The position numbers and the translations under genes are program-made. 64,000 nt of DNA, from assembly GCA_963668695.2 (NCBI GenBank), contig CAXXLQ010000004.1, positions 2,272,001 through 2,336,000 of the forward strand. Direction: 5' to 3'. Each line of letters starts with the position of its first letter. Position 1 is the stretch's first letter. Origin of the DNA: Vicinamibacteria bacterium. GTDB taxonomy: Bacteria > Acidobacteriota > Vicinamibacteria > Marinacidobacterales > Marinacidobacteraceae. Shown here in pieces: positions 7,219-61,568 of the stretch. Under the pieces are notes generated by a model that saw only the letters and a list, made by a program, of their open reading frames with translations, made no database searches and was not told the origin of the DNA.

Positions 7219-7234
7219 CAGGGTCCGCTCTTGG

Positions 7235-7879: not shown

Positions 7880-8679
<800 letters not shown>

Positions 8680-8739
8680 CGAGCGATTCTAGGCCGCTGG
8701 GACTTTGCGCTGGGCGGCGTTGGTGTGACGCCTAGAATC

Positions 8740-9047: not shown

Positions 9048-9053
9048 CCGGGC

Positions 9054-10287: not shown

Positions 10288-10358
10288 AGGGCCCGCTACA
10301 ATCCGAAGCATCGGGTGATGCGGGGCGCCTTTTGACCGGCGCCGGCCCGGTATCCGGA

Positions 10359-11044: not shown

Positions 11045-11596
11045 GCAGCCCGTGGACAAGGTGAACCGGCATTCGACCGGCGATGCATCCCGGCCAAACA
11101 ACCGGTGATGAAACCCACGCGGCCCAGTTCTCCCGGTGGGGGCTCGGCCGGCGATCCATCCCGGCTGAACTGCCGGTGATGAAACCCACGCGGCCCAGTT
11201 CTCCCGGTGGGGGCTCGGCCGGCGATCCATCCCGGCCAAACAGCCGGTGATGAAACCCACGCGGCCCAGTTCTCCCGGTGGGGGCTCGGCCGGCGATCCA
11301 TCCCGGCTGAACCGCGTCGCTGCGCGCCGCTCATCGTTGCGTTTCGGTCGGAATACATCCGGGCCAGTTCTCCCGGTGGGGGCTCCTCCCTCACGCGCCT
11401 TGTCAGCCGGGCGCCTCGCCCCCACCGGGAGAACTGGCCGGCCTCGGCGCTCATGCGGGTTCCACCACCGGCTGTTCACCGCGTCGCTTCGCGCCGCTCA
11501 TCGTTGCGTTTCGGTCGGAATACATCCGGGCCAGTTCTCCCGGTGGGGGCGCCTCCCCGCTCTCGGTGCTCGCCCCACTTTGTCCAAGGACTGCTA
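11042..11596 (+). mobile_element. Composite family A repeat
   Basis: Three tandem ~70-bp left modules plus core modules; ends GACTGCTA. Confidence 0.85.
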
Positions 11597-11640
11597 AACG
11601 ACGGTATCCTGCGCTACCGGCCCATCCGAGGAGGTCTCTC

Positions 11641-12519
11641 GTGCTTCGATTCCGTTCTTCAACACTCGTCTCCACCCCGCTGCTGCTCGTTCTTGGCTGC
11701 GGAGCTCCCCCTATGGAAGAGCCGATGGAACCGGCTGCGGTCGCCGTTGATGATCAGCCGGCCGGGGAGTACGTTCGGTTCGAGAGCGATTCGGGCGCAG
11801 CGACATGGGGCCGCGTCGACGGCGACGAGATCGTGGCCCTCCACGCGGCGCCCTGGGCGGGCGGAGCCCCGACCGGGGAGCGGGTTGCCCGCTCCGGAGC
11901 GCGTCTCCTCGCCCCCGCCGATCCGGGCAAGGTAATCGCGATCGGACTCAACTATGGCTCCCACCTGGGCGACCGGGAGCCGGCTCCCTATCCGGGGGTG
12001 TTCGCCAAGCTGCCCACGAGCATTGTTGGGCCCGGTGACGCTATCGAGATGACCGAGGACGCCGGGAACGTCCATTACGAGGGCGAATTGGTCCTGATCA
12101 TCGGCAAGGAGGCCAGTGACGTTCCGGTGGACCAGGCTCAGGATTACATTTTTGGGGTGACCGCCGGCAACGACGTGAGCGAACGCGATTGGCAGGGCGC
12201 CGATCTCCAGTGGTTCCGGGCGAAGGCCTCGGATACCTATGGACCGATCGGGCCGGTGATTTCACGCGGAGTCAACTATGACGACCTCGAACTCACGACC
12301 CGGCTGAACGGCGAAATCGTCCAGCAGCAGCGGACCAGCGACCTGATCTTCGACTCGAGCGACATCGTGAGCTACGTGAGCCGCTACGTGACCCTGATGC
12401 CTGGCGATGTCATCTTTACCGGGACCCCGGGGAGCACCCAGGCGATGAACGAGGGCGACACGGTCTCCGTCGAGGTCGAAACGGTCGGCGTCCTCGAAAA
12501 CCCGGTCGCTCGCCGTTAG
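11641..12519 (+). CDS. Fumarylacetoacetate hydrolase family protein with lipoprotein-like signal
   Basis: KVIAIGLNY, HYEGEL, NDVSERD, DVIFTGTPG; GAGGAGG before GTG; LLLVLGC. Confidence 0.88.
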   Translation: MLRFRSSTLVSTPLLLVLGCGAPPMEEPMEPAAVAVDDQPAGEYVRFESDSGAATWGRVDGDEIVALHAAPWAGGAPTGERVARSGARLLAPADPGKVIAIGLNYGSHLGDREPAPYPGVFAKLPTSIVGPGDAIEMTEDAGNVHYEGELVLIIGKEASDVPVDQAQDYIFGVTAGNDVSERDWQGADLQWFRAKASDTYGPIGPVISRGVNYDDLELTTRLNGEIVQQQRTSDLIFDSSDIVSYVSRYVTLMPGDVIFTGTPGSTQAMNEGDTVSVEVETVGVLENPVARR

Positions 12520-12613
12520 CCCGGATATCGTCAGGAATTCGCCCGCGGACGCTTCCGTGCCCGCGGGCGCCCGCGGACGGCGGGACTAGCCGGCTGCGTA
12601 ACCGCAGACGCCT

Positions 12614-12916
12614 TCAGATAGCGGCGGCGGCTTTCTGCAGCCTCCGTCCGAGGTGGTCCCCAATCGCGGAGCAGGGGACGAACATGGGCTTTTCGTCCAC
12701 GCTGATCCGGAAGGCGCACCCGCCGGTGGCGTTATCGGTCACCTCGAAGGTTCCCGAAAAGTTCCCGAGCGGCGTCGGGAGCGAAAACTCGCCGAACCCC
12801 GCAGGACCCTCGCCCCCGCTGACCGCGCCACCGAAGCGGGCAAAATCGGTCCGGAGGGATTCGAGGAGTTTTGCAGCCTCGACCGACAGGCTGAAATCAA
12901 ACTGACAGGCAGACAT
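12614..12916 (-). CDS. Hypothetical protein
   Basis: Compact ORF MSACQFDF...KPMFVPCSAI between two genes; no family recognised. Confidence 0.55.
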   Translation of the reverse strand: MSACQFDFSLSVEAAKLLESLRTDFARFGGAVSGGEGPAGFGEFSLPTPLGNFSGTFEVTDNATGGCAFRISVDEKPMFVPCSAIGDHLGRRLQKAAAAI

Positions 12917-12984
12917 AGAGGCTACCGGCTGGGAGTTGAGCGTTCGTTGGTCTGAGTGGTGATCAAACTCTGAAGGAATCCATT

Positions 12985-13176
12985 CGCGGCGCGCAGCGCC
13001 GCGGGGGTGGGGTGTGGGGAGGGGTTGCCCCTCCCCACGAAAGACGGTGGTGCGAATCGCGGAGCGATTCGCACCACCAACCCGTGGGGAAAGCGCCCCG
13101 CATGCGTACAACCCGCCAGATTCGGCGCGCGGGACGCCTTGGGGCTCGTGCGGGGTGCTTTCTCCATGGGGTGTCA
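12985..13176 (-). repeat. Multi-hairpin intergenic element family B, copy 2
   Basis: Same hairpin order as 5493-5687, starting at the M20 peptidase TGA. Confidence 0.75.
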
Positions 13177-14484
13177 GTTGGCGGCTGCGAGGCCGGCCTC
13201 GGCCAGTACGAGCAGCAGCGCCTTCTGGATGCCCAAATGGCCGTCACGGTTGGCCCACCACTCGTGGAGGGAGTGAGCGCCGAAGCCCTCCCCGCCGCTG
13301 CCGATCGTGGTGGCCGGGATTCCGCGGGCGATGGGGACGTTCGAGTCCGTGGAACCCATGCTGAGTTCCGGCTCCGCCCCAACGGCCCGGGTTGCGGCGA
13401 GAGCCCGCTGAATGAGCGGGGTGTCGATCGCAACCATCCCGGACGGGCGATCTCCGATCAACTCGATGTCCACCGTCAGCTCCTCGCCGTCCCGCCGCAT
13501 TTTGTTCTGCCCGGCGAGCGCGTCGGTCATCGCCGCCTGGAAGATGGCGTCGATCTCCTCGAGCCGTCCGGGTTCCATGGACCGCATGTCCACTTCCATC
13601 CAATTCTCGAACGGGATCGAATTGATGGAGGTGCCGCCTCCGATCCGGCCGATGTTGTAGGTGGTCTTGGCCCCTGCCGTGACGTACTCGCCCGCCCGGT
13701 CGTCGAACAGTTTGATGGCCCGGGCCATGGCGTGGGCCGGGTTCCCGAGGCCAAAGGCGCCCCACGAGTGCCCGCCGGGTCCAAGGAAACGGACCCGATA
13801 GCGATGGGAGCCGATCGCGTGGTTCAGCACCCGGGTGTTACTCGTGCCGTCAATGGCGATGAACGCGTCGATCTCCGGTCCCCCGTCCCGGAAGAGGTGC
13901 TTGACTCCCCGCAGGTCTCCGATCCCCTCTTCGCCGACCGATCCGACGAACAGCACGTCGTCGCGCATGTCGAGCCCGTGGCGATCCATGAGTTTGACGA
14001 TGGTCAGCATGGTCACCAGCCCGCGGGTGTCGTCGGCGATCCCGGGAGCCATCAACTTGTCCCCGTCTTTCCGGACGGTGACGTCGGTTCCTGCGGGAAA
14101 CACGGTGTCGAGGTGGGCCACCACCGCGATGGTCCGGCCTCCGGTTCGGCCCTTCCGGCGCGCGACGACGTTCCCGATCTCATCGAGTTCGGCTTCGAGC
14201 CCCGCTTCGCGCACGAGTCCCTGGTAGTGGGCAGCGCGCACTTCCTCCGTGAAGGGTGGCGCCGGGATCTCGGTCAACTCGATGAGCAGGCGCTCGTTTT
14301 CCTCATCCATCGTGAGGACTTCCTCGAGCGCCGCCGAAACCCGGCCGTCGGCCGTGATACCTGCCAACTCGGCCTCGTACTCGGGGAGCACCTCGAGTTC
14401 CTGGGCCCGAACTCCGAGCGCCGGAAGGAGCAGGCCCACGGTCAGGGCGGCAAGCAATTGCGATCTGGAATGCGATAGCGGCAT
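13174..14484 (-). CDS. Secreted M20/M25/M40 family metallohydrolase
   Basis: Signal peptide, AHLDTVF, PGIADD, GEEG, GGHSW, AHSLHEW. Confidence 0.9.
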   Translation of the reverse strand: MPLSHSRSQLLAALTVGLLLPALGVRAQELEVLPEYEAELAGITADGRVSAALEEVLTMDEENERLLIELTEIPAPPFTEEVRAAHYQGLVREAGLEAELDEIGNVVARRKGRTGGRTIAVVAHLDTVFPAGTDVTVRKDGDKLMAPGIADDTRGLVTMLTIVKLMDRHGLDMRDDVLFVGSVGEEGIGDLRGVKHLFRDGGPEIDAFIAIDGTSNTRVLNHAIGSHRYRVRFLGPGGHSWGAFGLGNPAHAMARAIKLFDDRAGEYVTAGAKTTYNIGRIGGGTSINSIPFENWMEVDMRSMEPGRLEEIDAIFQAAMTDALAGQNKMRRDGEELTVDIELIGDRPSGMVAIDTPLIQRALAATRAVGAEPELSMGSTDSNVPIARGIPATTIGSGGEGFGAHSLHEWWANRDGHLGIQKALLLVLAEAGLAAAN

Positions 14485-14590
14485 AACCGCCCAATCCTAC
14501 CGGACTCAGAACCCCGAACGGCCGTCGCTGTTGTGAGGAGGCGGTGCCCCGCGAAACCGCCGCTTCGCCGCTGTAACCTCTCGACGCCCC

Positions 14591-16783
14591 ATGTCGTTTC
14601 GCACCTTCCCGACTCGGTGGAGGCCCGGCCTCGGGTGTCTCGGCTCGCGCCGCGCAGCCTTTGTCGCCGCTGCCTGTCTGCTCCCGGTCGGGGGAGCGGC
14701 AACTCACGCGCAGCCGCCCGAACGCGTCCCCGAAAGAGTGGTGGTCCTTGGATTCGATGGAGCGGACCCGGACACCATCGCAGCGATGATCGCGGAGGGC
14801 GACCTTCCGAATCTTGCGAGTCTGGCCCGGCAGGGGACCTTCGCTCCGCTGGCCACTACCAAGCCCGCGGAGTCTCCGGTGGCTTGGGCAACCTTCGCCA
14901 CCGGAATGAATCCGGGGCGCACCCGGATCTTCGACTTTCTCGAGAAGCGGGAGGACACCTACGTCCCGCAGATCGCGCTGGTGCGGCAGGCATCGACCCA
15001 ACTGCCCGGAGTGCCGATGCGGGTAGGTCTCGTGCTGCTGGTGGCGCTCGGTGCGGGAATCGCGGCGAGCTGGCTGCTTCAACGCACTTCGGCAGGTCCC
15101 CGGATTCGCTGGATGTTCGTGGTGGTGTTGACGACCGTGCCCGGGGTGGCGGTGGCCCTCGTGGCGGTGTGGCTGCCCGCCGCAGTTCCGCGGGCGATCC
15201 GGGCCCGGCACGGAGACGCCTTCTGGAAGATCGCGGGTGGCGCCGGGGTTCCCACGGTCGCGCTTCAGGCCCCCATGGAGTTCCCGGTCGAGGAGTCACC
15301 CGGCACCCGCATCCTCGCCGGTTTTGGAGTTCCGGACGTTCGGAAGTCGTTCGGCCTCTGGTCGGTGTACACGACCGATCTCATCGAGGAGGAATCGACC
15401 GAAACCGGGGGCACCCGTTTCCCGCTCCGTTTCGATGCCGGGGTGGCGCGGAGCGTGATCCGCGGGCCCCGTGATTTCACGGCGGCGGTGCGAGAGGTGG
15501 ATCAGCCCGAGGTCGAGATTCCCGTCACGTTCCGGCGAAGCGAAGATGGGCTCGAGATCGAGACGTCCGGCACCGCGGTCAGCCTCGCTGCCGGGGAGTG
15601 GTCCGATTTCGTTTCGGTGCGTTTTCCGCTGAACCCGCTGATCCGGCTGGCAGGGTTGGTGCGTTTTCGAGTGCTGTCGCTCGAGCCGAATGTCTCGGTC
15701 TACATGGAGCCGATCAACTTCGACCCGGAGCGTCTGCCGCCGATCGTCGACCTTTCCTTCCCCCGGGACTTCGCCGGGGACCTGGCCCGGCGCGTCGGTC
15801 CCTACGAGACCATTGGCTGGAAGATCATCACGAACCCATTGCGCGACGAGGCGGTGGACTTCGACGCCCTGCTCGAGGATGCCCGGTTTGCTCGGGAGTC
15901 GAACGAGCGGCTGCTGATGGAGACGCTCCGCGAGGACTCCTGGCGGCTGCTGACGGCCGTCTTCCTGTTCCCGGACCGTATTCAACACATGCTCTACCGC
16001 TTCGCCGATCCCGATCATCCGAACCACGATCCGGAGTTGGGCCGGCGCTATGGCGGGGGGATCGCCCAGACCTATCGGGACCTCGACCGAATTGTCGGGG
16101 ACGCCGTGGCGGCGGCGCCTCCCGGCACCCGGTTCCTGGTGGTCTCCGACCACGGCTTCCATTCCTTCCGGAAGCAGTTCAACGTGAACACCTGGCTCGG
16201 TGAGAATGGCTACTTGCGGGCGGTTGGGGATTCGGGAGAGCGTCGACTGGAGGACCTGTTCGATCCCGAGGCGCTGTTCTTCCCGGGGGTGGACTGGAGC
16301 CGGACGAGTGCGTTCGCCCTGGGCCTTTCAGGGATCTATCTGAATCAGCAGGGCCGAGAGCCCGAAGGCACCGTCGCACCGGGAGCGGAGCGCGAGCAGC
16401 TCCTCGAGCGGCTCATCAGCGACCTCAAGGCGTTTCGCGATCCGGAGACCGGAGACCCCGTGGTCCGTGCGGTGCACCGGCGCGACGAGATCTACCAGGG
16501 CCCATTTGTGGAGGAGGCGCCCGATCTGATCCTCGGCCTGGAGCCCGGCTACCGAATCGGGTGGCAGAGCACCCTCGGCGGAATGCCGCCGTCTTCCATC
16601 ACACCGAATCTGGACAACTGGAGCGGTGACCACTGTTCCATGGAGGACACCGCCGGAGTGCTGCTGTCCAGCGTGTCGCTGCGGAAGCCGGCATCGCTCC
16701 GGGATGTCGCCCCCACGGTCCTCGACCTGCTGGGAGTCAGCGCGCCGGAGGACATGGACGGAACCTCGCTGCTGCCGCGCTGA
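14591..16783 (+). CDS. Alkaline phosphatase superfamily / type I phosphodiesterase protein
   Basis: VLGFDGAD, ESPVAWATFATG, DRIQH, VSDHGF, WSGDH. Confidence 0.85.
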   Translation: MSFRTFPTRWRPGLGCLGSRRAAFVAAACLLPVGGAATHAQPPERVPERVVVLGFDGADPDTIAAMIAEGDLPNLASLARQGTFAPLATTKPAESPVAWATFATGMNPGRTRIFDFLEKREDTYVPQIALVRQASTQLPGVPMRVGLVLLVALGAGIAASWLLQRTSAGPRIRWMFVVVLTTVPGVAVALVAVWLPAAVPRAIRARHGDAFWKIAGGAGVPTVALQAPMEFPVEESPGTRILAGFGVPDVRKSFGLWSVYTTDLIEEESTETGGTRFPLRFDAGVARSVIRGPRDFTAAVREVDQPEVEIPVTFRRSEDGLEIETSGTAVSLAAGEWSDFVSVRFPLNPLIRLAGLVRFRVLSLEPNVSVYMEPINFDPERLPPIVDLSFPRDFAGDLARRVGPYETIGWKIITNPLRDEAVDFDALLEDARFARESNERLLMETLREDSWRLLTAVFLFPDRIQHMLYRFADPDHPNHDPELGRRYGGGIAQTYRDLDRIVGDAVAAAPPGTRFLVVSDHGFHSFRKQFNVNTWLGENGYLRAVGDSGERRLEDLFDPEALFFPGVDWSRTSAFALGLSGIYLNQQGREPEGTVAPGAEREQLLERLISDLKAFRDPETGDPVVRAVHRRDEIYQGPFVEEAPDLILGLEPGYRIGWQSTLGGMPPSSITPNLDNWSGDHCSMEDTAGVLLSSVSLRKPASLRDVAPTVLDLLGVSAPEDMDGTSLLPR

Positions 16784-16814
16784 GCCCGGCGCCGGAGTCG
16801 GGTCCCGGGGTGTT

Positions 16815-17328
16815 TAACAGCCTGTGGTGAAACCCACGTGAGCGCCGAGACCGGCCAGTTCTCCCGGTGGGGGCGAGGCCCAGTTCTCCCGGTGGGGCCA
16901 GTCCTCCCGGTGGGGGCCCGGCTGACAAGGCGCGTGAGGGAGGAATACCTGGTGTATTTCGACCGAAACGCAACGATGAGCGGCGCGAAGCGACGCGGTG
17001 AACAGCCTGTGGTGGAACCCGCGCGAGTGCCGAGGCCGGCCAGTTCTCCCGGTGGGGGCGAGGCCCAGTTCTCCCGGTGGGGCCAGTCCTCCCGGTGGGG
17101 GCCCGGCTGACAAGGCGCGTGAGAGAGGAGCCCCCACCGGGAGAACTGGCCCGGGCGTATTTCGACCGAAACGCAACGATGAGCGGCGCGAAGCGACGCG
17201 GTTCGGCCGGGATGGATCGCCGGCCGAGCCCCCACCGGGAGAACTGGGCCGCGCGGGTTTCATCACCGGCTGTTTGGCCGGGAGGGATCGCCGGTCGAAC
17301 GCCGTGTGGGTTTTGCCACGGGTTGTCA
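16815..17328 (-). mobile_element. Composite family A repeat, reverse orientation
   Basis: TAACAGCCTGTGG at 16815; degenerate other end overlaps the lactate permease stop. Confidence 0.85.
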
Positions 17329-19095
17329 GTTGGCGCGGTTGCGGAAGATCCACACCGCGGCCGCGACCGCGATACCGGCAACGACCAGGGAACCGGCATT
17401 GACCGGTCCCAGCGTGCCCGACCACAGGATCGCATAACCGAGGGCTCCCGGGAGCAGGGCGTAGTAGACGAACGGAACCAGCGTGCGCCGGATCACGGCG
17501 CCTTCACGGCCGACCAGTCCGACGACCGCCGAGGCGGCCACCACGTTGTGGACGCAGATCATGTTCCCGGCCGCTCCCCCGACCGCCTGGAGCGCGACCA
17601 CCCATCCGGGATCCACCGAGAGACGCTCGCCGACTCCGAACTGGAACAAGGAGAACATCATGTTGCTCACGGTGTTGCTGCCGGCGACGAAGGCCCCGAG
17701 GCCGCCGATGAAGGGTGCGAAGAACGGCCAAGCCGACCCCGCGATCTGTGCGGCGCCCTCGGCGAGGGCGATGGGCATCGAGGCGAGCCCTGCCGCACCG
17801 CCGCCGGTATTCAGGAACACCTGCACCATGGGCACGGTGAACACCAGCGCCACCGAAGCGAGAGCGGTGCTCCGGAGCGAGGCAGAAACCGCGCGTCCGA
17901 TCTGATCCCGGTCCATCCGGTGGATCAGGACCGCAAACAGCGAGGCGGCGATGAAGACGGCGCCCGGAAGGAACAATGGTGCGGCGCTCGCGCTGATGTC
18001 GCTGCCGAAGATCTCCGGCCAGCGAATCACCACCCCCGAGAGGAACTCCTTGAAGGGTAGCCACGGCAGGCGGGTGAGCACCAGGAGGCCGCCGACAACC
18101 GCGTAGGGAGCCCACGCGGACACGGCTCCGATCGTCCGGCCCTTTGCAGGTTGGATATCGGAGATCAGCTTCCCGCCGACCCAGTCTGCGTCCCAGGCGG
18201 AGCGCGCCGGGAACTCGAAGTGCTGCCCGACGGGGGGCATGAAGAGGCCCCGCCGGGCGGCGGTAACGACGATCCCGAGCCCGACCAGGCCGCCGAGCAG
18301 CGCCGGGAATTCCGGGCCGAGCAGCCAAGCGGTCAGCAGGTAGGGGACGATCATCGCCACCGCGGCGAAGAGGGCGAATTTCCAGACCGCGAGTCCCTCC
18401 CGGAAACTCCGGCGCTCGCCGAAGAACCGGGTCATGGTGGCGACCACGATGAGCGGGACCAGGGTGCCGGCGACGGCATGCAGGATCGCAACCCGAAGTC
18501 CGATGAAGGCCAGGAACTCGGTCCATTCCGGGAATCCGAGCCCGGCGGCGTAGGCGGCGACCGCTTCCGATCCCGAGAGACCGGTGGAGACCCCGACCAG
18601 GATCGGGGTTCCCGCGGCGCCAAAGGAGACGGGAGTGCTCTGGATGATCATTCCCGCCACCACGGCGGCGAGCGGCGGGAACCCGAGGCCCACCAGCAAC
18701 GGCACGGCAACCGCCGCCGGAGTCCCAAATCCGGCAGACCCCTCGATGAACGACCCGAACAGCCAGGCGATCAGGATGACCTGGATGCGCCGGTCGGGAG
18801 TGATGCCGACGAATCCCCGCCGGATTACCGAGAGAGCCCCGCTCTCCTGCATGGTGTGCAGGAGCAGAAGCGCGCCGAAGATGATGTACAGCAGCGTCCC
18901 TGCGACCACCAGGCCGTTGACCGAGGCGGCGGCGATCCGGACGCCGGAAATGCCCCAGACACCCCAAGCGAGTCCCGCCGCAGCGAGCCAGCTCAGCGGC
19001 ATGGCGCGCGACGCCGGCCAGCGCAAGCCGACCAGAAAGAGTGCGACCACCCCGATCGGGATGAGCGCGATCGCGGCAAGACCAAGAGTTCCCAT
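17326..19095 (-). CDS. lctP: L-lactate permease
   Basis: [47 protein letters not shown]. Confidence 0.92.
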
Positions 19096-54373: not shown

Positions 54374-55749
54374 AGGTGGGGCTGGTGAGCCTCGGATGCG
54401 CGAAGAACCTGCTCGACAGCGAGGTCATGGCAGGCGTCCTCACCAGCCGCGGATTCGAGATGACATCCGATCTGGCGGAGGCGGAGGCGCTCGTGGTGAA
54501 CACCTGCGGGTTCATTGGTCCGGCGAAGGAGGAGGGGGTGAACGCCATCCTCGAGTTGGCGCAGTTCAAGAACCGCGGCCGGTGCCGGCGATTGGTGGTG
54601 GCCGGATGCCTGGCGCAGCGGTATGCGAGCGAGCTCGCGCGTGAGATCCCCGAGATCGACGCGGTCCTCGGGCTCGACGAGGTCGAACGCATTGCGGATG
54701 TCCTGATCGCTCCCGAGCGGCGGACCCCGCCGCTACGCGCCGACCAATCGGTCACCTGGCTCTACGACCACACTACCCCCCGGATTCGTTCCACCCCGCC
54801 GCACATCGCCTACATCAAGGTGGCCGAGGGCTGCGACTATCCCTGCACGTTCTGTGTGATCCCGCAGATTCGTGGACATTTCCGCAGTCGTGATCCGGAT
54901 TCGGTGCTCGCCGAGGCGGAGTCGCTGGCCCGGACGGGTACCCGGGAACTCATTCTGGTGGCGCAGGATACGACCGCCTACGGCAAGGATCTCGGGATCC
55001 GGCACGGGCTCGCGAAACTCCTGCGCCAGCTCGCCGAAGTGAGCGGCATCGCCTGGGTGCGTTTCCTCTACGCCTATCCGACAACGCTCGATGACGAGGT
55101 ACTCGGGGCGATGGCGGAGGTCCCGGAAGTCTGTCGTTACGTGGACATCCCGCTGCAGCACGCGAGCCGCCGAGTCCTGCGGGACATGCGTCGTCCCGGG
55201 AATCGGGACAGCAACGAGCGGCTCCTCGCGCGGATCCGCGAGGCAGTGCCCGGGGTCGCCATCCGAAGCACCTTCATCGTCGGGTTTCCCGGGGAAACCG
55301 AAGAAGAGTTCCGGGAGCTCCACGACTTCGTGGAAGGAGCCCGGTTCGACGCGATGGGAGCGTTTGTCTATTCGAACGAAGAGTCCGCCGCTTCGTTCGT
55401 GGAGCGCGAAGTGGTTTCGGAAGCCGAGAAGGAAGAACGCCGGGCACGCCTCATGGAGCTGCAACGGGGTATCGCTCTCGCCCGCCACCGCGAAATGGTC
55501 GGGAGCGTTGTTCCGGTGCTGGTGGACGGCGACGCTGAAGAGAGCGAGTTGCTCACGGCCGGGCGGACCGAAAAACAGGCGCCGGACGTGGACGCCCGCG
55601 TCCTCATCGTGGATGGGGAGGCGCCGGCAGGCCGGTTTGTGGACGTGAAGATCACCGAGGCGCATCCGGAGGATCTGGTGGGCGAAGCTCTCGGAGGGAC
55701 CGATTTCCGGAGCCCCGACAGATCCGCGAGCTGTCCCCTATCCAGATAG
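54349..55749 (+). CDS. rimO: Ribosomal protein S12 methylthiotransferase (start uncertain)
   Basis: SLGCAKNLLDSE, NTCGFI, KVAEGCDYPCTFC, DIPLQH, APDVD. Confidence 0.93.
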   Translation: MRLPGQAPKVGLVSLGCAKNLLDSEVMAGVLTSRGFEMTSDLAEAEALVVNTCGFIGPAKEEGVNAILELAQFKNRGRCRRLVVAGCLAQRYASELAREIPEIDAVLGLDEVERIADVLIAPERRTPPLRADQSVTWLYDHTTPRIRSTPPHIAYIKVAEGCDYPCTFCVIPQIRGHFRSRDPDSVLAEAESLARTGTRELILVAQDTTAYGKDLGIRHGLAKLLRQLAEVSGIAWVRFLYAYPTTLDDEVLGAMAEVPEVCRYVDIPLQHASRRVLRDMRRPGNRDSNERLLARIREAVPGVAIRSTFIVGFPGETEEEFRELHDFVEGARFDAMGAFVYSNEESAASFVEREVVSEAEKEERRARLMELQRGIALARHREMVGSVVPVLVDGDAEESELLTAGRTEKQAPDVDARVLIVDGEAPAGRFVDVKITEAHPEDLVGEALGGTDFRSPDRSASCPLSR

Positions 55750-55971
55750 AGACGGCCAGTCCACCTCTCGGGAGAGGGGCGGGACATCCGCGCCGCGGGC
55801 TTTCCCGACTGAGATTCGCGTCTGCTTCAGCGATCTCGGAGTGGGGTATACTCAGTCGTTCGGGTGCGGCCGGGGTGGGCCGGGGTGGGGTCGCTCCCGT
55901 TTGTTCCTTGACCCGTCGCGCTCCGGTGCGGCGGGTTTTCTCCGATCCCCCAATTTCGAGAGGCTGTACGC

Positions 55972-56520
55972 ATTTCGCAAGAAGAACCGGACCCGCAGCG
56001 CCTTCACCAAGCGGGCGACGATCTCGCCGCGCACATCGAGAGACTGGCGCGGCGAGCGGCGGCGAGTGCTCAGGTTGAGTTGGCATGGATCGAGATCAAG
56101 GGACCGCGCAGCGGACGGCGGGTACGGGTTTTCATCGAGCGAACCGACGATGCGGTAGGGCTGAGAGATTGCGAACGGGTGAACGAAAAGCTGTCCGCAC
56201 TCCTCGATCTGGAGGATCCGATTCCCGGGACCTACACCCTCGAGGTGAGCACGCCGGGTCTCGATCGTCCGCTGCGTTCGGTCGAGGAGTGCCGGCGATT
56301 CCTCGGGCGGCGGGTTCGGATACGCCACCGGATGGAGAATCGACAGGACACCGTGACCGCAACGCTGCGGGCGGTGAAGGAGGACGGCGTCCTCTGCCTG
56401 AATGGGCCCAACGCAGAGCGGCAAATCGCCTGGAGCGAGGTTCTCGCGGCCCGTCTCGCTCCGGACTTCGAGGCCCTGCTCGGAAGGGGTCCCGGCGAGC
56501 GGAGGAGCCAGTCGAGCTGA
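55972..56520 (+). CDS. rimP: Ribosome maturation factor RimP, probable ATT start
   Basis: VRVFIE, DCERV, YTLEVSTPGLDRPL; GAGAGG 8 nt before in-frame ATT. Confidence 0.85.
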   Translation: MSQEEPDPQRLHQAGDDLAAHIERLARRAAASAQVELAWIEIKGPRSGRRVRVFIERTDDAVGLRDCERVNEKLSALLDLEDPIPGTYTLEVSTPGLDRPLRSVEECRRFLGRRVRIRHRMENRQDTVTATLRAVKEDGVLCLNGPNAERQIAWSEVLAARLAPDFEALLGRGPGERRSQSS

Positions 56521-58829
56521 TGGCTGCCATCGAGGAACTCGCCGCGGAAGTGGATCGGGCCGAGATCATCGCGAGCGTGGAACAGGCAGCAGCGCTGGCC
56601 GCTTCGCGCAGTAGCGGCCTCTCGTTGCGCGCCCGCCTCGATGCCGAAAAAGGACATCTCGTGTGCTACGTGGTGAAGCGCGTGGCCAAGGAGGTGCAGG
56701 ATCCCGAAACTGAGGTCGGAGTGGAGGCAGCTCCCGATGGTTTTTCCCCGGGAGATCTGGTGGAGGTTGAGGTTCCCTTCGGGACGGCGGCCCGCAGCGC
56801 GGCACGGGCGGCCGGCGCGGTACTCGAGGCGCGCCTCCGAGCCGCGCGGATGCTCTCCCGCGCCGAACCGTACCGCGACCGTGTCGGCAAGCTGGAAACG
56901 GCGATCGTCGCCCGTCGCGAAGGGCAGGACCTCATCGTCAACCTCGGTCCGGTAGAGGGACGGCTGCCTGCCGAAGAACAGAGCCGACACGAGGTCTTCA
57001 ATCCGGAAGAAACCATCCGGGTGGCGGTGCACTCCATCGAGCCCGACGATCCTCCCGTCATCCTGTCCCGGATTGCCCCGGCAGTGCTCGCGGGCCTCAT
57101 CGAACGCGAGACCCCGGAGGTTCGCCGCGGAGTGGTCGAGGTTCGAGCGGTGGCACGCCATCCCGGCATCCGGGCGAAGGTGGCGGTATCGAGCGCCGTG
57201 CCCGGAGTGGACCCCGTAGCCGCCTGCCTCGGGCCGGGAGGCTCTCGCATACGTGCTGTAAGCCTCGAGCTCCGCGGTGAACGAGTGGATGTGGTTCTCT
57301 GGGACAAAACGATGGAGAAGTTTGCGCGCAATGCGCTTCGCCCAGCGGAAGTGCTCGACATCTGTACGGTGGACGAGGAATCTCAAGACGGGGGGTCGCG
57401 GAGGCTCCGCGAAAAGGGCGGGTTGCTGGTGACCGTTTCCGAAGCCGAGCTCCCGCGGACCCTCGGCAAGCGTGGTCAGAACGTTCGCCTGGCGTCCGAA
57501 CTGCTCGGAGTTGACATCGAAGTGGTGGCCGAGGGCGATGCACAGGAAGCAGACGAACGGAGCTCTCGCCGGGAGGACGCCCTCGACACCGGCTCTCCCG
57601 GGCGTGGTCCCCGCGATACGGAGTATCCCCGGCGCGGTCCCCGCGATACGGAGTATCCCGGGCGTGGTCCCCGCGATACGGAGTATCCCCGGCGTGGTCC
57701 CCGCGATACGGAGTATCCCCGGCGTGGTCCCCGCGATACGGAGTATCCCCGGCGTGGTCCCCGCGATACGGAGTATCCCCGGCGCGGTCCCCGCGATACG
57801 GAGTATCCCCGGCGTGGTCCCCGCGATACGGAGTATCCCCGGCGCGGTCCCCGCGATGCGGAGTATCCCCGGCGTGGTCCCCGCGATGCGGAGTCTCCCC
57901 GGCGCGGTCCCCGCGATGCGGAGTATCCCCGGCGCGGTCCCCGCGATGCGGAGTATCCCCGGCGTGGTCCCCGCGATGCGGAGTCTCCCCCCCGGCGTGG
58001 TCCCCGCGATGCGGAGTCTCCCCCCCGGCGTGGTCCCCGCGATACGGAGTATCCCCGGCGTGGTCCCCGCGATACGGAGTATCCCCGGCGTGGTCCCCGC
58101 GATACGGAGTATCCCCGGCGTGGTCCCCGCGATGCGGAGTCTCCCCGGCGTGGTCCCCGCGATACGGAGTATCCCCGGCGTGGTCCCCGCGATACGGAGT
58201 ATCCCCGGCGCGGTCCCCGCGATACGGAGTATCCCCGGCGCGGTCCCCGCGATACGGAGTATCCCCGGCGCGGTCCCCGCGATACGGAGTATCCCCGGCG
58301 TGGTCCCCGCGATGCGGAGTATCCCCGGCGCGGTCCCCGTGATACGGAGTATCCCCGGCGCGGTCCCCGTGATACGGAGTATCCCCGGCGCGGTCCCCGC
58401 GATGCGGAGTATCCCCGGCGTGGTCCCCGCGATACGGAGTATCCCCGGCGCGGTCCCCGCGATGCGGAGTATCCCCGGCGTGGTCCCCGCGATGCGGAGT
58501 ATCCCCCCCGGCGTGGTCCCCGCGATGCGGAGTCTCCCCGGCGTGGTCCCCGCGATGCGGAGTCTCCCCGGCGTGGTCCCCGCGATGCGGAGTCTCCCCG
58601 GCGTGGTCCCCGCGATGCGGAGTCTCCCCGGCGTGGTCCCCGCGATGCGGAGTATCCCCGGCGTGGTCCCCGCGATACGGGGTCTTCCCGGCGGAATCCC
58701 GACCAGCGGCGGGGAGGACCTGGCGCGCCCTCGCGGGACCACGGACCCCGGAATCAGAAACCACGTCCCCGGCGGGACGATCGGCCGGATCGGGTGAGGG
58801 AATCCGCGCCGGAGTCGCGGGAGCAGTAG
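56520..58829 (+). CDS. nusA: Transcription factor NusA with repetitive C-terminal extension
   Basis: S1 and KH motifs VILSR, PGIRAKVAV, DPVAACLG, GKRGQNVRLAS; operon position. Confidence 0.92.
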   Translation: MAAIEELAAEVDRAEIIASVEQAAALAASRSSGLSLRARLDAEKGHLVCYVVKRVAKEVQDPETEVGVEAAPDGFSPGDLVEVEVPFGTAARSAARAAGAVLEARLRAARMLSRAEPYRDRVGKLETAIVARREGQDLIVNLGPVEGRLPAEEQSRHEVFNPEETIRVAVHSIEPDDPPVILSRIAPAVLAGLIERETPEVRRGVVEVRAVARHPGIRAKVAVSSAVPGVDPVAACLGPGGSRIRAVSLELRGERVDVVLWDKTMEKFARNALRPAEVLDICTVDEESQDGGSRRLREKGGLLVTVSEAELPRTLGKRGQNVRLASELLGVDIEVVAEGDAQEADERSSRREDALDTGSPGRGPRDTEYPRRGPRDTEYPGRGPRDTEYPRRGPRDTEYPRRGPRDTEYPRRGPRDTEYPRRGPRDTEYPRRGPRDTEYPRRGPRDAEYPRRGPRDAESPRRGPRDAEYPRRGPRDAEYPRRGPRDAESPPRRGPRDAESPPRRGPRDTEYPRRGPRDTEYPRRGPRDTEYPRRGPRDAESPRRGPRDTEYPRRGPRDTEYPRRGPRDTEYPRRGPRDTEYPRRGPRDTEYPRRGPRDAEYPRRGPRDTEYPRRGPRDTEYPRRGPRDAEYPRRGPRDTEYPRRGPRDAEYPRRGPRDAEYPPRRGPRDAESPRRGPRDAESPRRGPRDAESPRRGPRDAESPRRGPRDAEYPRRGPRDTGSSRRNPDQRRGGPGAPSRDHGPRNQKPRPRRDDRPDRVRESAPESREQ
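57597..58680 (+). repeat. Coding tandem repeat, 36 x 30 bp (three 33-bp variants)
   Basis: CCCCGGCGTGGTCCCCGCGATACGGAGTAT units encoding PRRGPRD[TA]E[YS]. Confidence 0.97.
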
Positions 58830-58835
58830 CTATTT

Positions 58836-61568
58836 ATGCCGTCCACGGTCAGGGTCAGCGACCTCGCCAAAGAGGTTGGGTTGGAGCCCGGAGAACTCCT
58901 CCGGGTTCTTCAGGCGGATTTCGGCGTGCGCGCCCGGACGGTCTCCTCGTCCATCCCGGACGGTGACGCACGAAAGGTAAGGAACCGGCTGCGATTGCAG
59001 CAGCGGCGTGCTTCGCGCCCCGATCGCCGTCTGCAGGCCGCGGAGAACATCCGCCGCGCTGCCGAACAGCGCCTCCTCCGCGATGCCGCAGAAGTGAAGG
59101 CCCGCGGCGAGGCCGAGCGCAGGGCGCGGGAAAGGGCGCGGGAAGAAGCGGAGAAGAAGGCTCAGGAAGAGGCGGAAGCGAGGGCGCAGGCCGAGGAAGC
59201 GGAGGCGCAAAGGCAAGAGCTCGAACGCGCCGCCGCCGAGCGAAAGGCCGAAGAAGAGCGCCAGGCTGCCGAGGCCGCTGCCCGGGGAGCGGCTGAGGCC
59301 CGCAAGCCTGAGACGGCCCGCAAGCTCGAGGAGCAGGCGCAGGAGAAGAGGACAGTCCGCCCGACCGTCCCGGAAACCCCCGCTGGTGAGCGCGATGGTC
59401 GCCGCGGGCGGGTTCGGGATCTTGAGCCGTCCGCCCGTCTGGCTGCGGCCTCCGCGAAGCCCGCCGAACCGGCCCCGGCCAAGCCGCCCTCGCGCCGGAT
59501 CGAGACGCGCAGCATCGCTTCCTCTGCAAGGCCCAGCGAATTCCGACCTGGAGCCACGGACCGCAAGATCGTTCCCACTGTGATCCGACCTGTCCGTCGG
59601 GCCACACCTCCACGAATCCGGGCTACCCCGCCGCCAATGCGTCGAACGCCCGCAGCCCCGCCCAAGCTGCAACGTCCGGGTATGGGCCGCCGATCAAAGG
59701 GGAGACGGCGCCAGGGGCCGGCGGAGACCCCCGAGGTTCTCGATGGATTCGACAGCCAGCTGCCTCCCGGGTTACGGCAGGCGGTGAACCGGGAATCCCG
59801 TACCAACGCGAAGATTGCACTCAGTGAGGCCATTACCGTGAAGGGACTCGCGGAGGCCATGAGCATCCCGACCGTCGAGGTGATCAAGGCGTTGTTGCTT
59901 CATCACGGGCTGGCGGTGTCCATCAATCAGCCGCTCGATGCGGAAACCGCCTCGAAACTGGTTCGCCGGTTCGGAGGTTCGATCATCGAGGCTTCGGCAT
60001 CGAAGGACGAACTGGAGTCTGGCGCCGCGGAACTGTCCGACGAACAGAAAGAGGGGTTGGTCGAGCGCGCCCCGGTGGTCACCGTGATGGGTCATGTGGA
60101 CCACGGCAAGACGAGCCTTCTCGATGCCATCCGTAGCGCGCGGGTCGTGGACACGGAGGCGGGTGGCATTACCCAGCACATGAGCGCCTATTCGGTGGAA
60201 ACGAACGGCCACCGCCTTGTCTTCCTCGACACCCCCGGACACGAAGCGTTTACCAAGATGCGAGCGCGCGGCGCCGGGGTTACCGATGTGGTCGTCCTGG
60301 TGGTGGCGGCCGACGACGGGGTAAAAGAGCAGACGATCGAAGCCCTCAACCACGCCCGCGCCGCCGGGGTTCCCATGGTGGTTGCCGTCAACAAGATGGA
60401 TAAGCCATCAGCCGATCCGGAGCTGGTGATGCGGCAGCTCGCCGAACGCGAGGTGACCCCGGAGGACTGGGGCGGCGACGCCATCTTCTGTCGGGTTTCC
60501 GCCAAGACCCACGAGGGGCTTTCGGATCTGCTGCAATCAGTACTCGACGTGGCCGAACTCGAGGAGCCCACCGCGAATCCGATCGGCCCCGCGCAGGGAG
60601 TCGTCCTTGAGGCCCGCATGGACAAGGGCCGTGGCCCGGTGGCCCAGTTCCTGGTCCAGGGGGGCACGTTGTCCGTCGGTGACACGGTTAGCGCCGGCGC
60701 GGCGTGGGGCAAGGTTCGGGCGATTCTGGACGAATCGGGGCGCCGCCTGAAGACGGCGCCTCCCTCGACGCCCTGCGAGGTGCTCGGACTCACTGAAGTC
60801 CCGGTGGTTGGCGACCGCTTCTCGGCAAGCCAGACGCCTTCCGAAGCGCGCCGGGTGGCGGAAGAGAAGAAGGGCGAAGCACGGCTGCGGTTGATCGAGG
60901 GACGCCAGCGGCTGAACCTCCAGAACCTTCACTCCCAGATGAGCGGCGGGTTGAAGGAGCTCTCGATCGTGGTGAAGGCGGACGTTGGCGGGACCGTGGA
61001 AGCGGTCAGGGACTCTTTGGAGCGTCTCTCCACGGACGAAGTAAAGGTCCGGGTGATCCATGCCGCCGCGGGGGCTGTTTCGGAGAGCGACGTGAACCTG
61101 GCATCGGCTACCGACTCCATCATCGTGGCTTTTGGAGTCCGCCCGGACCCCCAGGCGCAGCGTCTCGCGGAGCAGGAGAGGGTGGAGATTCGCGGCCATA
61201 CGGTCATCTACCACTTGGTCGAGGAGATGCAGAAAGCGCTGGAGGGCCTCCTCGAACCCGAGACCGAGGTCGTCGAGCTCGGCAAGATCGAAGTACGGCA
61301 AACTTTCCAGGTGCCGCGGGTGGGCGTGGTGGCCGGCTCTTACGTCCTCGCCGGCAGTGTTCCCAGAAGCGCCCACGTGCGGTTGGTGCGCGACGGCAGA
61401 CTGGTATATACCGGCCGCATCGGCAGCCTTCGGCGGTTCAAGGAGGATGTGGCCCAGGTTCGCGAGGGCTTCGAATGCGGCGTCGGCATCGCCGGCTACA
61501 ACGACGTGAAGATCGGCGACATCATCGAGGCGTTCCGCGAGGAACAAGTCAGTCCCGTCGCCGGCTAA
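58836..61568 (+). CDS. infB: Translation initiation factor IF-2
   Basis: MGHVDHGKT, GGITQH, DTPGH, NKMD, LRRFKEDV. Confidence 0.97.
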   Translation: MPSTVRVSDLAKEVGLEPGELLRVLQADFGVRARTVSSSIPDGDARKVRNRLRLQQRRASRPDRRLQAAENIRRAAEQRLLRDAAEVKARGEAERRARERAREEAEKKAQEEAEARAQAEEAEAQRQELERAAAERKAEEERQAAEAAARGAAEARKPETARKLEEQAQEKRTVRPTVPETPAGERDGRRGRVRDLEPSARLAAASAKPAEPAPAKPPSRRIETRSIASSARPSEFRPGATDRKIVPTVIRPVRRATPPRIRATPPPMRRTPAAPPKLQRPGMGRRSKGRRRQGPAETPEVLDGFDSQLPPGLRQAVNRESRTNAKIALSEAITVKGLAEAMSIPTVEVIKALLLHHGLAVSINQPLDAETASKLVRRFGGSIIEASASKDELESGAAELSDEQKEGLVERAPVVTVMGHVDHGKTSLLDAIRSARVVDTEAGGITQHMSAYSVETNGHRLVFLDTPGHEAFTKMRARGAGVTDVVVLVVAADDGVKEQTIEALNHARAAGVPMVVAVNKMDKPSADPELVMRQLAEREVTPEDWGGDAIFCRVSAKTHEGLSDLLQSVLDVAELEEPTANPIGPAQGVVLEARMDKGRGPVAQFLVQGGTLSVGDTVSAGAAWGKVRAILDESGRRLKTAPPSTPCEVLGLTEVPVVGDRFSASQTPSEARRVAEEKKGEARLRLIEGRQRLNLQNLHSQMSGGLKELSIVVKADVGGTVEAVRDSLERLSTDEVKVRVIHAAAGAVSESDVNLASATDSIIVAFGVRPDPQAQRLAEQERVEIRGHTVIYHLVEEMQKALEGLLEPETEVVELGKIEVRQTFQVPRVGVVAGSYVLAGSVPRSAHVRLVRDGRLVYTGRIGSLRRFKEDVAQVREGFECGVGIAGYNDVKIGDIIEAFREEQVSPVAG

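What the first reader, a model, noticed from the sequence alone, without database searches (positions are those of the whole stretch)
57597..58680. NusA with a 36-copy decapeptide tail (PRRGPRD[T/A]E[Y/S])
Seen: after KH2, NusA continues in frame through 36 30-bp units (about 360 aa). The only length variants are three +CCC (Pro) insertions, so frame is always kept, and the ORF ends 6 nt before infB. Known: NusA binds RNAP and nascent RNA and has been reported to form condensates in E. coli; Pol II uses a phosphorylatable repeat CTD. Inference: a disordered Arg/Pro/Tyr tail with Thr/Ser/Tyr sites could be a tunable RNA-binding or condensate module whose length varies like a VNTR.
Basis: partly seen in the sequence, partly recalled or inferred. 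Interest (0 to 1): 0.8.

Follow-up and report, generated by a model that had tools for sequence, protein, structure and literature searches.

The report
NusA with long arginine-rich repeat tail
The transcription factor NusA of an uncultured marine Acidobacterium has swapped its usual acidic end domain for a floppy, positively charged tail that a few related species have stretched to about 36 near-identical ten-residue repeats; it probably acts as an extra RNA-gripping or clustering arm, but this is untested.

Summary
nusA (window 56520-58829, 769 aa) runs in frame from KH2 through 36 units of PRRGPRD(T/A)E(Y/S) (TRF: 57596-58693, period 30, 36.3 copies). It stops 6 nt before infB.

The array is unlikely to be an assembly artefact. 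Independent few-contig genomes of three sister species carry 34-36 thirty-base units or 31 twenty-four-base units. A fourth congener outside that clade expanded a different Arg/Asp repeat.

All 23 NusA tails examined in this family are Arg-rich and basic. All 7 examined from two sister families, and all 11 from other Acidobacteriota families, are acidic; all 3 sister-family proteins scanned with Pfam carry a helix-hairpin-helix domain. So the family reversed the charge of the NusA C-terminus, and one clade then amplified the tail about six-fold.

RRGPRD and the following Pro are nearly invariant, with wobble-position variation. The Thr/Ser/Tyr positions are the variable ones, which argues against a CTD-like phospho-code. 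AlphaFold models the core confidently and the tail as disordered.

The function (Arg-driven multivalent binding of RNA or ribosome, or condensate formation) is inferred, not shown. A tolerated neutral minisatellite remains a serious rival. I found no published description of such a NusA tail.

The parts
56080..56520 (+). rimP, upstream gene of the operon; its stop overlaps the nusA start by 1 nt
   Evidence: ORF. Pfam RimP_N scores 62.2 bits, E 6.3e-17.
56520..58829 (+). nusA, whole gene (769 aa plus stop)
   Evidence: Open frame. TIGR01953 NusA E 6.6e-71, covering residues 6-337. The N-terminus MAAIEEL... is shared by the genus. rimP-nusA-infB gene order.
56520..57554 (+). NusA core: N-terminal domain, S1, KH1, KH2 (residues 1 to about 345)
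   Evidence: Pfam NusA_N 39.6 bits, KH_5 79.5 bits, S1 19.7 bits (below its cut-off of 22). PDB NusA 1hh2 E 2.9e-48 over residues 10-335. AlphaFold block pLDDT 84-96 up to residue 340.
57555..57595 (+). short, mostly acidic linker between KH2 and the array
   Evidence: Translation. pLDDT falls to 52-56 here.
57596..58693 (+). tandem array of 36 units of 30 bp (3 of them 33 bp) encoding PRRGPRD(T/A)E(Y/S)
   Evidence: TRF. Unit and codon table. pLDDT below 50 with no secondary structure.
58694..58829 (+). non-repetitive basic C-terminal segment (about 45 aa) and stop codon; partly conserved in the genus (...APE.R.. end)
   Evidence: Tails printed; alignment consensus. The last codons lie just upstream of infB, where its ribosome-binding site would be expected (inference), so part of this conservation may come from infB.
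58836..61568 (+). infB (IF2), 6 nt downstream
   Evidence: ORF. Pfam IF-2, GTP_EFTU and IF2_N.
57472..58797 (+). alternative open frame across the array (PGVVPAIRSI repeats); not proposed as a gene
   Evidence: Listed. 7 of 8 fetched database NusA proteins slip into this frame inside the array. The wobble changes of the NusA frame cause radical P/R/L changes in this frame.

Best explanation
This is the single NusA of a Candidatus Marinacidobacterium-like Acidobacterium. In its family the ancestral acidic helix-hairpin-helix C-terminal module has been replaced by an intrinsically disordered, net-positive tail rich in Arg, Pro, Gly and Asp, built on the motif RGPRD. In one clade of the genus the 30-bp unit grew from about 5-7 to about 34-36 copies, presumably by replication slippage or unequal recombination. 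The result is a tail of about 420 residues with roughly 120 Arg, no Lys, about 80 Asp+Glu and 27 aromatic residues. Shown: the tail is present, stays in the NusA frame, is conserved at the peptide level, is family-wide and is predicted disordered. Inferred: it works as a sequence-nonspecific, multivalent Arg (and Tyr) arm. Such an arm would add avidity for nascent RNA, and possibly for rRNA or the ribosome, to the S1-KH RNA-binding core. Its capacity to hold NusA-RNAP-RNA assemblies together, as a condensate or hub, would grow with length. Copy number would then be an evolvable setting for that capacity.
For: Reality of the array:
- G000 is a 4-contig, 4.1-Mb assembly.
- Few-contig genomes of sister species carry 35.7 (G001) and 34.1 (G004) copies of the 30-bp unit and 31.0 copies of a 24-bp derivative (G008). 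G009 carries 9.1 copies of a 75-bp Arg/Asp unit. All are in frame up to the conserved C-terminal segment before infB; in G004 and G008 the frame then reads on through an inserted element.
- In two DNA runs from two studies, words of the repeat have summed depths of 4951-17423 and 946-3617. The unique flank has 210.6 and 83.5.
- Contigs of two metatranscriptome runs cover 56900-57630, into the first unit, with no differences.

Frame and selection:
- All periods are multiples of 3: 30, 24, 75, 18 and 15.
- In 102 ten-residue units from three species, the seven codons for RRGPRD and Pro show 47 synonymous and 12 non-synonymous variant cells. Positions 6-8 vary freely (tallied by hand from the table).
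- The RGPRD core persists across different periods and in a second genus, G019.
- A search of 5.8 billion proteins with the tail returned 19 hits, 16 of them NusA.

Family-wide charge reversal:
- 23 of 23 family tails have 23-39% Arg, net charge +3 to +50 and pI at least 11.1.
- 7 of 7 sister-family tails have net charge -8 to -27, and 3 of 3 tested carry HHH_5.
- 11 of 11 tails from other Acidobacteriota families are acidic.

Physics:
- pLDDT is below 50 for residues 357-389 and 391-769.
- Fraction of charged residues 0.49, net charge per residue +0.09, kappa about 0.16 (my own script).

Precedent:
- Arg-enriched mixed-charge domains condense in a length-dependent way, and more so with added positive charge (abstract of 10.1101/771592).
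- E. coli NusA phase-separates in vitro (PMC7414142, passages).
- The expanded arrays gained aromatic residues (6-27, against 0-1 in 8 of the 10 short-tail congeners).
Against: - No experiment or proteomic evidence bears on translation or function.
- The RNA evidence is contigs from RNA libraries of one study, and such libraries can contain DNA.
- Ten congeners manage with 77-167-residue tails, so the extra length is not needed for NusA function in the genus.
- Units are homogenised within each species with no position-by-position orthology (my reading of the unit strings). Much of the conservation between units could therefore be concerted evolution rather than selection.
- By distinct variant types, the synonymous excess in the core codons is only 9 against 7 (hand tally).
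- A whole-unit count of variant types in three frames favours the NusA frame only mildly: 13 of 37 synonymous, against 8 and 7 of 37.
- GC3 of the unit is lower in the NusA frame (6 of 10 codons) than in the alternative frame (8 of 10), by my count.
- The genome is generally rich in tandem arrays (495 TRF rows).
- Charges in the tail are well mixed, which on general polyampholyte theory (recalled, not read here) favours an expanded coil over self-association.
Confidence: 0.5

Rival explanations
1. Tolerated neutral expansion. The basic tail has some function at 5-7 units, but the growth to about 36 units is a minisatellite that slippage produces and selection merely tolerates, provided the frame is kept. 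On this view length itself does nothing.
For: The genome has many tandem arrays (495 TRF rows). Ten congeners have 77-167-residue tails. Copy number differs between assemblies whose core is at least 99.1% identical: 28, 33, 34 and 36 units. Units are homogenised within each species.
Against: All four species of the long-array clade keep 31-36 units although their unit sequences have diverged. G009 made an independent expansion of similar total length (350 aa) with a different unit. No out-of-frame indel occurs in 33-36 units in each of G000, G001 and G004. The expanded arrays gained aromatic residues.
Confidence: 0.3
2. Coupling tether. The tail reaches from RNAP-bound NusA to the 30S subunit or to the charged N-terminal region of IF2, encoded 6 nt downstream. 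It would link transcription to translation initiation, as proposed for the Pro-rich NusA tail of Mycoplasma pneumoniae.
For: The M. pneumoniae NusA C-terminal extension is Pro-rich, predicted disordered, and crosslinks to several 30S proteins (10.1101/2020.02.28.970111, passages). An IF2-NusA contact through KH2/AR1 is reported second-hand in 10.64898/2026.02.08.704698. The tail here is 20% Pro and basic, so it is suited to binding rRNA. IF2 here has a Glu/Arg/Ala-rich N-terminal stretch.
Against: No test was done. AR1, the reported IF2 contact, is absent here. A tether does not obviously need 36 identical units.
Confidence: 0.15
3. CTD-like phospho-platform. The Thr/Ser/Tyr of each unit are phosphorylated to recruit factors or to switch the tail's charge.
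For: There is one Thr or Ser and often one Tyr per unit. The genome has one Hanks-type kinase. RS domains are described as phosphorylation-regulated mixed-charge domains (section title in 10.1101/771592).
Against: The acceptor positions are the least conserved: T/A/S/G at position 6 and Y/S/H at position 8. In G000, 13 of 33 ten-residue units have Ala at position 6. Tyr/Trp/Phe are absent or nearly absent from most short-tail congeners (0-1 in 8 of 10).
Confidence: 0.07
4. Assembly artefact, or a different reading. Either the copy number is inflated or the frame is wrong, or the array acts as DNA or RNA, or it switches frame to give alternative tails.
For: 7 of 8 fetched database NusA proteins change frame inside the array. 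All six frames are open. Logan contigs break at the array, so copy number was not measured directly.
Against: Five species representatives and P0002 are in frame throughout. The frame breaks fall at different units in different assemblies of one species, as random errors would. No indel reached the 10% reporting threshold in the first four units in four runs. No Rfam match at E up to 1. The repeat RNA folds worse than its shuffles (z +2.22; 197 of 200 shuffles fold at least as well). The alternative frame takes radical P/R/L changes where the NusA frame is synonymous.
Confidence: 0.05

Closest known systems
Bacterial NusA (TIGR01953; solved structures 1hh2 and 1l2f from Thermotoga maritima, 6flq from E. 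coli, 1k0r from M. tuberculosis)
   Same: It has the N-terminal domain, S1, KH1 and KH2 in the same order, and the same operon (rimP-nusA-infB). PDB matches reach E 2.9e-48 over residues 10-335.
   Different: It is divergent: 239.1 bits against a curated cut-off of 253.4. It has no acidic AR/helix-hairpin-helix domain; a 424-residue basic repeat tail follows the core instead.
Proline-rich disordered C-terminal extension of Mycoplasma pneumoniae NusA (expressome study, 10.1101/2020.02.28.970111)
   Same: It is a lineage-specific, Pro-rich, disordered extension after the KH domains of NusA.
   Different: The paper does not report it as a tandem array or as Arg-rich, in the passages I read. No sequence comparison was made here. 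Ribosome contact is shown there and is untested here.
Arg-enriched mixed-charge domains of eukaryotic nuclear-speckle proteins (Greig et al., 10.1101/771592)
   Same: It is disordered and highly charged (fraction of charged residues 0.49). Arg is the only base, Asp and Glu are interspersed, and the net charge is positive. G009's RRDSD repeats come especially close to RD repeats.
   Different: It is bacterial, fused to a transcription elongation factor, rich in Pro/Gly/Tyr, and made of near-perfect tandem units. Condensation has not been tested.
Disordered Arg-rich tails on other bacterial RNA-handling proteins
   Same: The design is the same: a folded RNA-binding or RNA-processing core plus a long charged, repeat-built disordered tail that varies in length between relatives.
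   Different: The host protein, the motif (RGPRD) and the scale (36 near-identical units) differ. The earlier scan notes are unchecked AI notes.
RNA polymerase II CTD heptad repeats
   Same: Both are tandem short-peptide repeats on a core transcription protein, with Pro, Ser/Thr and Tyr in each unit.
   Different: In the CTD the phospho-acceptor positions are the conserved ones (recalled). Here they are the variable ones, and the charged core is what is conserved.

Membership tests
NusA (TIGR01953 equivalog domain) | N-terminal RNAP-binding domain | tested here: met
   Pfam NusA_N scores 39.6 bits against a cut-off of 23.8. The region is a confident helix/strand fold with pLDDT 88-94.
NusA (TIGR01953 equivalog domain) | S1 domain followed by two KH domains | tested here: met
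   KH_5 scores 79.5 bits. S1 scores 19.7 bits, just under its cut-off of 22. TIGR01953 aligns positions 8-337 of 340, and PDB NusA chains align to residues 335-342.
NusA (TIGR01953 equivalog domain) | Whole-protein score above the curated cut-off | tested here: not met
   It scores 239.1 bits against a cut-off of 253.4, with E 6.6e-71. I read it as a divergent orthologue: no second NusA-core locus was found in G000 with this query, and the gene sits in the rimP-nusA-infB context.
E. coli-type NusA C-terminal AR1/AR2 (helix-hairpin-helix) module | HhH domain(s) after KH2, with acidic net charge | tested here: not met
   No HHH_5 hit in the window protein or in 4 of 4 other family members tested. 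HHH_5 is present in 3 of 3 sister-family NusA proteins. The tail here has pI 11.1 and net charge +40.
Arg-enriched mixed-charge domain | Disordered, high fraction of charged residues, Arg rather than Lys, charges interspersed | tested here: met
   pLDDT below 50. Arg 29%, Lys 0%, Asp+Glu 19%. Fraction of charged residues 0.49 and kappa about 0.16, from my own script.
Arg-enriched mixed-charge domain | Length-dependent condensation | not testable with these tools
   This needs purified protein or imaging.
Pol II CTD-like phospho-repeat platform | Conserved Ser/Thr/Tyr acceptor positions in each unit | tested here: not met
   Position 6 is T/A/S/G and position 8 is Y/S/H. The invariant residues are RRGPRD and Pro.
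Pol II CTD-like phospho-repeat platform | Dedicated kinases or phosphatases acting on the repeat | not testable with these tools
   One Hanks-type kinase gene is present in the genome. Nothing links it to NusA.
Mycoplasma-type NusA ribosome-contacting extension | Disordered Pro-rich extension after KH2 | tested here: met
   The tail is 20% Pro and predicted disordered.
Mycoplasma-type NusA ribosome-contacting extension | Contact with 30S proteins; sequence relatedness | not tested
   No Mycoplasma sequence was fetched, and binding cannot be tested here.

The most novel reading that the evidence does not exclude
The genus offers a natural length series of an Arg/Tyr sticker-and-spacer tail on NusA: about 5-7 units in ten species, 28-36 in one clade, and an independent RD-type expansion in another species. 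On this reading, copy number sets how strongly NusA gathers RNAP, nascent RNA and perhaps ribosomes into transcription hubs. That would make it a bacterial counterpart of the repeat-number dependence seen in eukaryotic mixed-charge and CTD-type domains, acquired after the ancestral acidic regulatory domain was lost.
Probability: 0.2. Interest if true: 0.75.

Novelty: new variant of a known kind. Interest (0 to 1): 0.5.

Why it matters
NusA is a universal, essential-class transcription factor. Its C-terminal acidic domains are thought to regulate its RNA binding and partner contacts. Here a whole bacterial family has reversed the charge of that end, and one clade has then amplified it about six-fold.

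This supplies ready-made natural variants (0, 6 and 36 units, and 8-, 10- and 25-residue periods). They could be used to test two open questions: whether disordered Arg-rich tails give bacterial transcription factors length-dependent RNA binding or condensate behaviour, and whether NusA tails couple RNAP to ribosomes outside Mycoplasma.

It is also a caution for annotation. Many database copies of this gene are frame-broken inside the array, and short-read assemblies could in principle collapse such an array.

Tried and rejected
Only 56900-57720 was laid, and only as Logan contigs, so copy number, transcript ends and expression level could not be measured.
I draw no habitat or strain conclusion from them.
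- ESM Atlas look-up of the tail: unavailable.
- Rfam scan of 55700-59200 at E up to 1: no match.
- RNA fold of six units: less stable than shuffles, so an RNA-structure role was dropped.
- Loss of Rho as a correlate of the basic tail: rejected. TIGR00767 matches are found in 41 of 41 genomes, over the cut-off in 38.
- A crude GC3-filtered genome scan for other Arg-rich proteins was too noisy to use, and it filtered out nusA itself.
- The whole-unit synonymous/non-synonymous count by frame was only mildly informative.
- Phylum screen: in 120 other Acidobacteriota genomes, 118 had a NusA match. No uninterrupted match ran past query residue 404. Five longer alignments contained 3-13 stop codons and were treated as spurious. 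This screen only detects tails that resemble the query.
- Literature searches found no description of an Arg-rich repeat tail on NusA. 'Marinacidobacterium' occurs in 0 held papers.
- Supplements of the cited preprints were not read and could hold relevant NusA tail data. These include the expressome paper's supplementary figure S18 and its supplementary text on the NusA extension, and the IF2 preprint's Extended Data 2.
Full report
**Observation**

The ORF list and Tandem Repeats Finder show one array at 57596-58693: period 30, 36.3 copies, 95% matches, score 1814. It lies inside a long plus-strand frame.

Pfam places RimP in 56080-56520, and NusA_N, S1 and KH_5 in the next frame. IF2 follows at 58836-61568. 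The NusA start that fits the family is the ATG at 56520, which gives 769 aa. All family relatives begin with the same MAAIEEL-type N-terminus.

Anchoring on the RGPRD core gives 36 units, 33 of ten residues and 3 of eleven. Each extra residue is a Pro from an added CCC. The stop is at 58827-58829 and infB starts 6 nt later.

**Identity of the gene**

- TIGR01953 (NusA) aligns to residues 6-337 with E 6.6e-71. At 239.1 bits it is just under the curated cut-off of 253.4.
- Solved NusA structures match residues 10-342, the best being 1hh2 at E 2.9e-48.
- No second NusA-core locus was found in the genome with this query; apart from one weak low-complexity hit elsewhere (E 2e-4), the extra matches are the repeat hitting itself.
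- An AlphaFold2 model, built on a 22-sequence alignment, has block pLDDT of 84-96 up to residue 340. pLDDT is below 50, with no secondary structure, for residues 357-389 and 391-769.

So this is a divergent but ordinary NusA core followed by a predicted disordered tail.

**Organism**

The window is G000:C4:2272001-2336000, in a 4.1-Mb, 4-contig genome that is 91.7% complete with 9.3% contamination. Its two closest named relatives are MAGs titled Candidatus Marinacidobacterium sp.. That genus belongs to Acidobacteriota, class Vicinamibacteria.

**Is the array real?**

I could not lay reads across it. The tool refuses long repeats, and the runs available are k-mer contigs, which break at the array. 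The indirect evidence is good.

- Sister species assembled independently into 1-20 contigs carry arrays of the same kind and size: G001 has 35.7 copies, G004 has 34.1 copies, and G008 has 31.0 copies of a 24-bp derivative. All are in frame up to the conserved C-terminal segment before infB; in G004 and G008 the frame then reads on through an inserted MITE-like element (see 'Seen in passing').
- In two DNA runs from two studies, the unique flank has word depths of 210.6 and 83.5. Bins inside the first units have summed depths of 4951-17423 and 946-3617. No indel was reported at the 10% threshold. The tool warns that these sums are not copy numbers, and one of these runs may be the source sample. 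The sums are simply consistent with tens of copies.
- Two metatranscriptome runs, both from one study, have contigs covering 56900-57630, from the KH region into the first unit, and contain repeat words. RNA libraries can contain DNA, so this is weak evidence of transcription.

**Which frame?**

All six frames are open across the array. By my count, the alternative plus frame (PGVVPAIRSI) even has higher GC3 than the NusA frame: 8 of 10 codons against 6 of 10.

A tail-only search of 5.8 billion proteins gave 19 hits, 16 of them NusA. I fetched 8 of these. One (P0002) is in frame through 28 units. The other seven slip into the alternative frame inside the array, and one of them returns to the NusA frame later.

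I read the slips as assembly errors, for three reasons:

- They fall at different units in assemblies whose cores are identical to one another (99.7% to G001).
- Five species representatives are in frame throughout.
- Third-position changes that are silent in the NusA frame (CGT/CGC, CCC/CCG/CCT, GGT/GGC) become radical P/R/L or V/A changes in the other frame.

In 102 ten-residue units of G000, G001 and G004, the codons for RRGPRD and Pro show 47 synonymous and 12 non-synonymous variant cells, by my hand tally. By distinct variant types this is 9 against 7, which is weak because units are copies of each other.

The RGPRD core also survives changes of period: 10, 8 and roughly 5-6 residues. It appears in a second genus, G019, whose tail has a one-base frame break. 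All periods are multiples of three.

A real frame-switching polymorphism is not excluded, but I rate it unlikely.

**Comparative picture**

NusA was found in 40 of 41 genomes of the relatives set (G000 included). The exception, G002, is 66% complete. I analysed the 30 loci the tool returned: 23 from the window's family, including G000, and 7 from two sister families.

| Group | Tails examined | Arg content | Net charge | pI |
|---|---|---|---|---|
| Window's family | 23 | 23-39% | +3 to +50 | 11.1-12.0 |
| Two sister families | 7 | 2-6% | -8 to -27 | 4.1-4.7 |
| Other Acidobacteriota families | 11 | 0-6% | -5 to -59 | not computed |

The first two rows come and the third.

- HHH_5 was found in 3 of 3 sister-family proteins tested and in 0 of 4 further family members tested.
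- In an even sample of 120 other Acidobacteriota genomes, 118 had NusA. No uninterrupted match reached past query residue 404.
- The tallies include three genomes flagged as unpublished (G033, G064, G089). No sequence-level statement here rests on them.

On a maximum-likelihood tree of the core, G000, G001, G004 and G008 form one clade (support 99/97). This clade is sister to ten species with short tails of 77-167 aa (support 100/98). Two of those short-tail species, G010 and G014, are 1-2-contig assemblies, so their short tails are not collapsed repeats.

G009 has a 350-aa tail of RRDSD-type units (75-bp period, 9.1 copies) and falls outside both clades. There were therefore at least two independent large expansions in one genus. 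Smaller 15- and 18-bp arrays occur in other genera.

The short-tail clade already has the 30-bp unit, at 4.7-6.8 copies in the two species analysed (G010, G012), so the unit predates the expansion. Units are homogenised within species: position 6 is mostly T/A in G000, S/T in G001 and T/G in G004.

**Properties of the tail**

- The 424 residues after the core are 29% Arg, 0% Lys, 20% Pro, 10% Gly and 19% Asp+Glu. They include 27 aromatic residues, almost all the unit Tyr, and carry a net charge of +40.
- My script gives a fraction of charged residues of 0.49, a net charge per residue of +0.09 and a kappa of about 0.16, which indicates well-mixed charges.
- Expanded arrays carry 6-27 aromatic residues. 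Eight of the ten short-tail congeners carry 0-1. G005 (5) and G014 (2) are exceptions, and their tails include a read-through insertion.

**Mechanism**

Shown: the tail's presence, frame, family-wide charge reversal, repeated expansion and predicted disorder.

Inferred: the tail is an Arg-driven, sequence-nonspecific, multivalent arm. It would add avidity for nascent RNA, and possibly for rRNA or ribosomes, to the S1-KH core. It may also promote clustering of transcription complexes.

The precedents are these:

- E. coli NusA phase-separates in vitro, and its acidic AR2 domain can mask KH1 (PMC7414142, passages).
- Arg-enriched mixed-charge domains condense in a length-dependent way, and more strongly with added positive charge. 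Lys cannot replace Arg in them (abstract of 10.1101/771592).
- The Pro-rich disordered NusA extension of M. pneumoniae crosslinks to 30S proteins (10.1101/2020.02.28.970111, passages).
- An IF2-NusA contact through KH2/AR1 is cited in 10.64898/2026.02.08.704698 (passages).
- That Tyr and Arg act together as stickers in phase-separating proteins is recalled from the literature, not read here.

**Against the phospho-CTD idea**

The Thr/Ser/Tyr positions are the variable ones. The genome does have one Hanks-type kinase.

**Against an RNA-level role**

There is no Rfam match, and the repeat RNA folds worse than its shuffles (z +2.22).

**The main rival**

The strongest alternative is that the extra length is a tolerated minisatellite. 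The genome has 495 TRF rows. Short-tail species do well without the extra length. Copy number ranges from 28 to 36 among assemblies with cores at least 99.1% identical to G001.

Against this, four diverged species retain 31-36 units, and an independent expansion reached a similar total length.

**Novelty**

I found no paper describing an Arg-rich repeat tail on NusA.

Disordered lineage-specific NusA extensions are known from Mycoplasma. Arg-rich tails on RNA-handling proteins are a known kind. Earlier unchecked notes of this scan report a Lys-rich repeat tail on a Patescibacteria NusA, and Arg-rich tails on RNase III, RlmD and RsmI.

I therefore class this as a new variant of a known kind, of moderate interest. 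Its main value is as a natural length series for experiments.

**Seen in passing**

- In G004, and judging by the same C-terminal peptide also in G005, G008 and G014, the nusA frame reads on for about 60 more residues. In G004 this extension is a roughly 190-bp element with 880 blastn matches in G000, the best at 92-95% identity over 183-190 bp.
- This fits earlier scan notes of a MITE that inserts at TA sites, often in stop codons.

Noticed in passing
L004 (G004) 3' end of nusA; by the same peptide also L005 (G008), L016 (G014) and L006 (G005): The nusA frame reads on for about 60 extra residues through a roughly 190-bp element where the stop should be. The G004 element has 880 blastn matches in G000, the best at 92-95% identity over 183-190 bp. 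It is a high-copy MITE-like element, apparently inserted at or in the stop codon.
   Followed up: partly
Database proteins P0003-P0008 and P0013: 7 of 8 fetched NusA proteins with long arrays change into the PGVVPAIRSI frame inside the array, at different units. One returns to the NusA frame later. These are probably assembly errors, but a real frame-switching polymorphism was not excluded.
   Followed up: partly
L017 (G019, another genus of the family): The NusA tail is built of RGPRD-type units with a roughly 15-18-bp period. It is interrupted by a one-base frame break at a G5/C4 run, and the array continues in the +1 frame for about 100 more residues.
   Followed up: partly
G000 contig C4, outside the window (e.g. 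2804007-2826733, 3762099-3769062, 976158-979026): The genome is very rich in tandem arrays (495 TRF rows). One array has 64.5 copies of a 351-bp unit over 22.7 kb, and there are many 32/64-bp and 53-bp satellite arrays.
   Followed up: no
window 58836-59400 (IF2 N-terminal region; 24-bp repeat at 59133-59190): IF2 begins with a long Glu/Arg/Ala/Lys-rich charged stretch containing a short 24-bp repeat of 2.4 copies. Its relation to the basic NusA tail encoded just upstream is unknown.
   Followed up: no
G000:C4:521062-522177 and the equivalent place in every relative: Besides Rho proper, each genome of the order has a second Rho-like gene. It scores 424-472 bits, below the TIGR00767 cut-off, and lacks roughly the first 32-50 profile positions. 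Rho proper of this family also scores lower (557-596 bits) than in 15 of 16 sister-family genomes (662-729 bits).
   Followed up: no
window 57686-57865: The repeat mRNA is predicted to be less structured than composition-matched shuffles (z +2.22; 197 of 200 shuffles fold at least as well).
   Followed up: no
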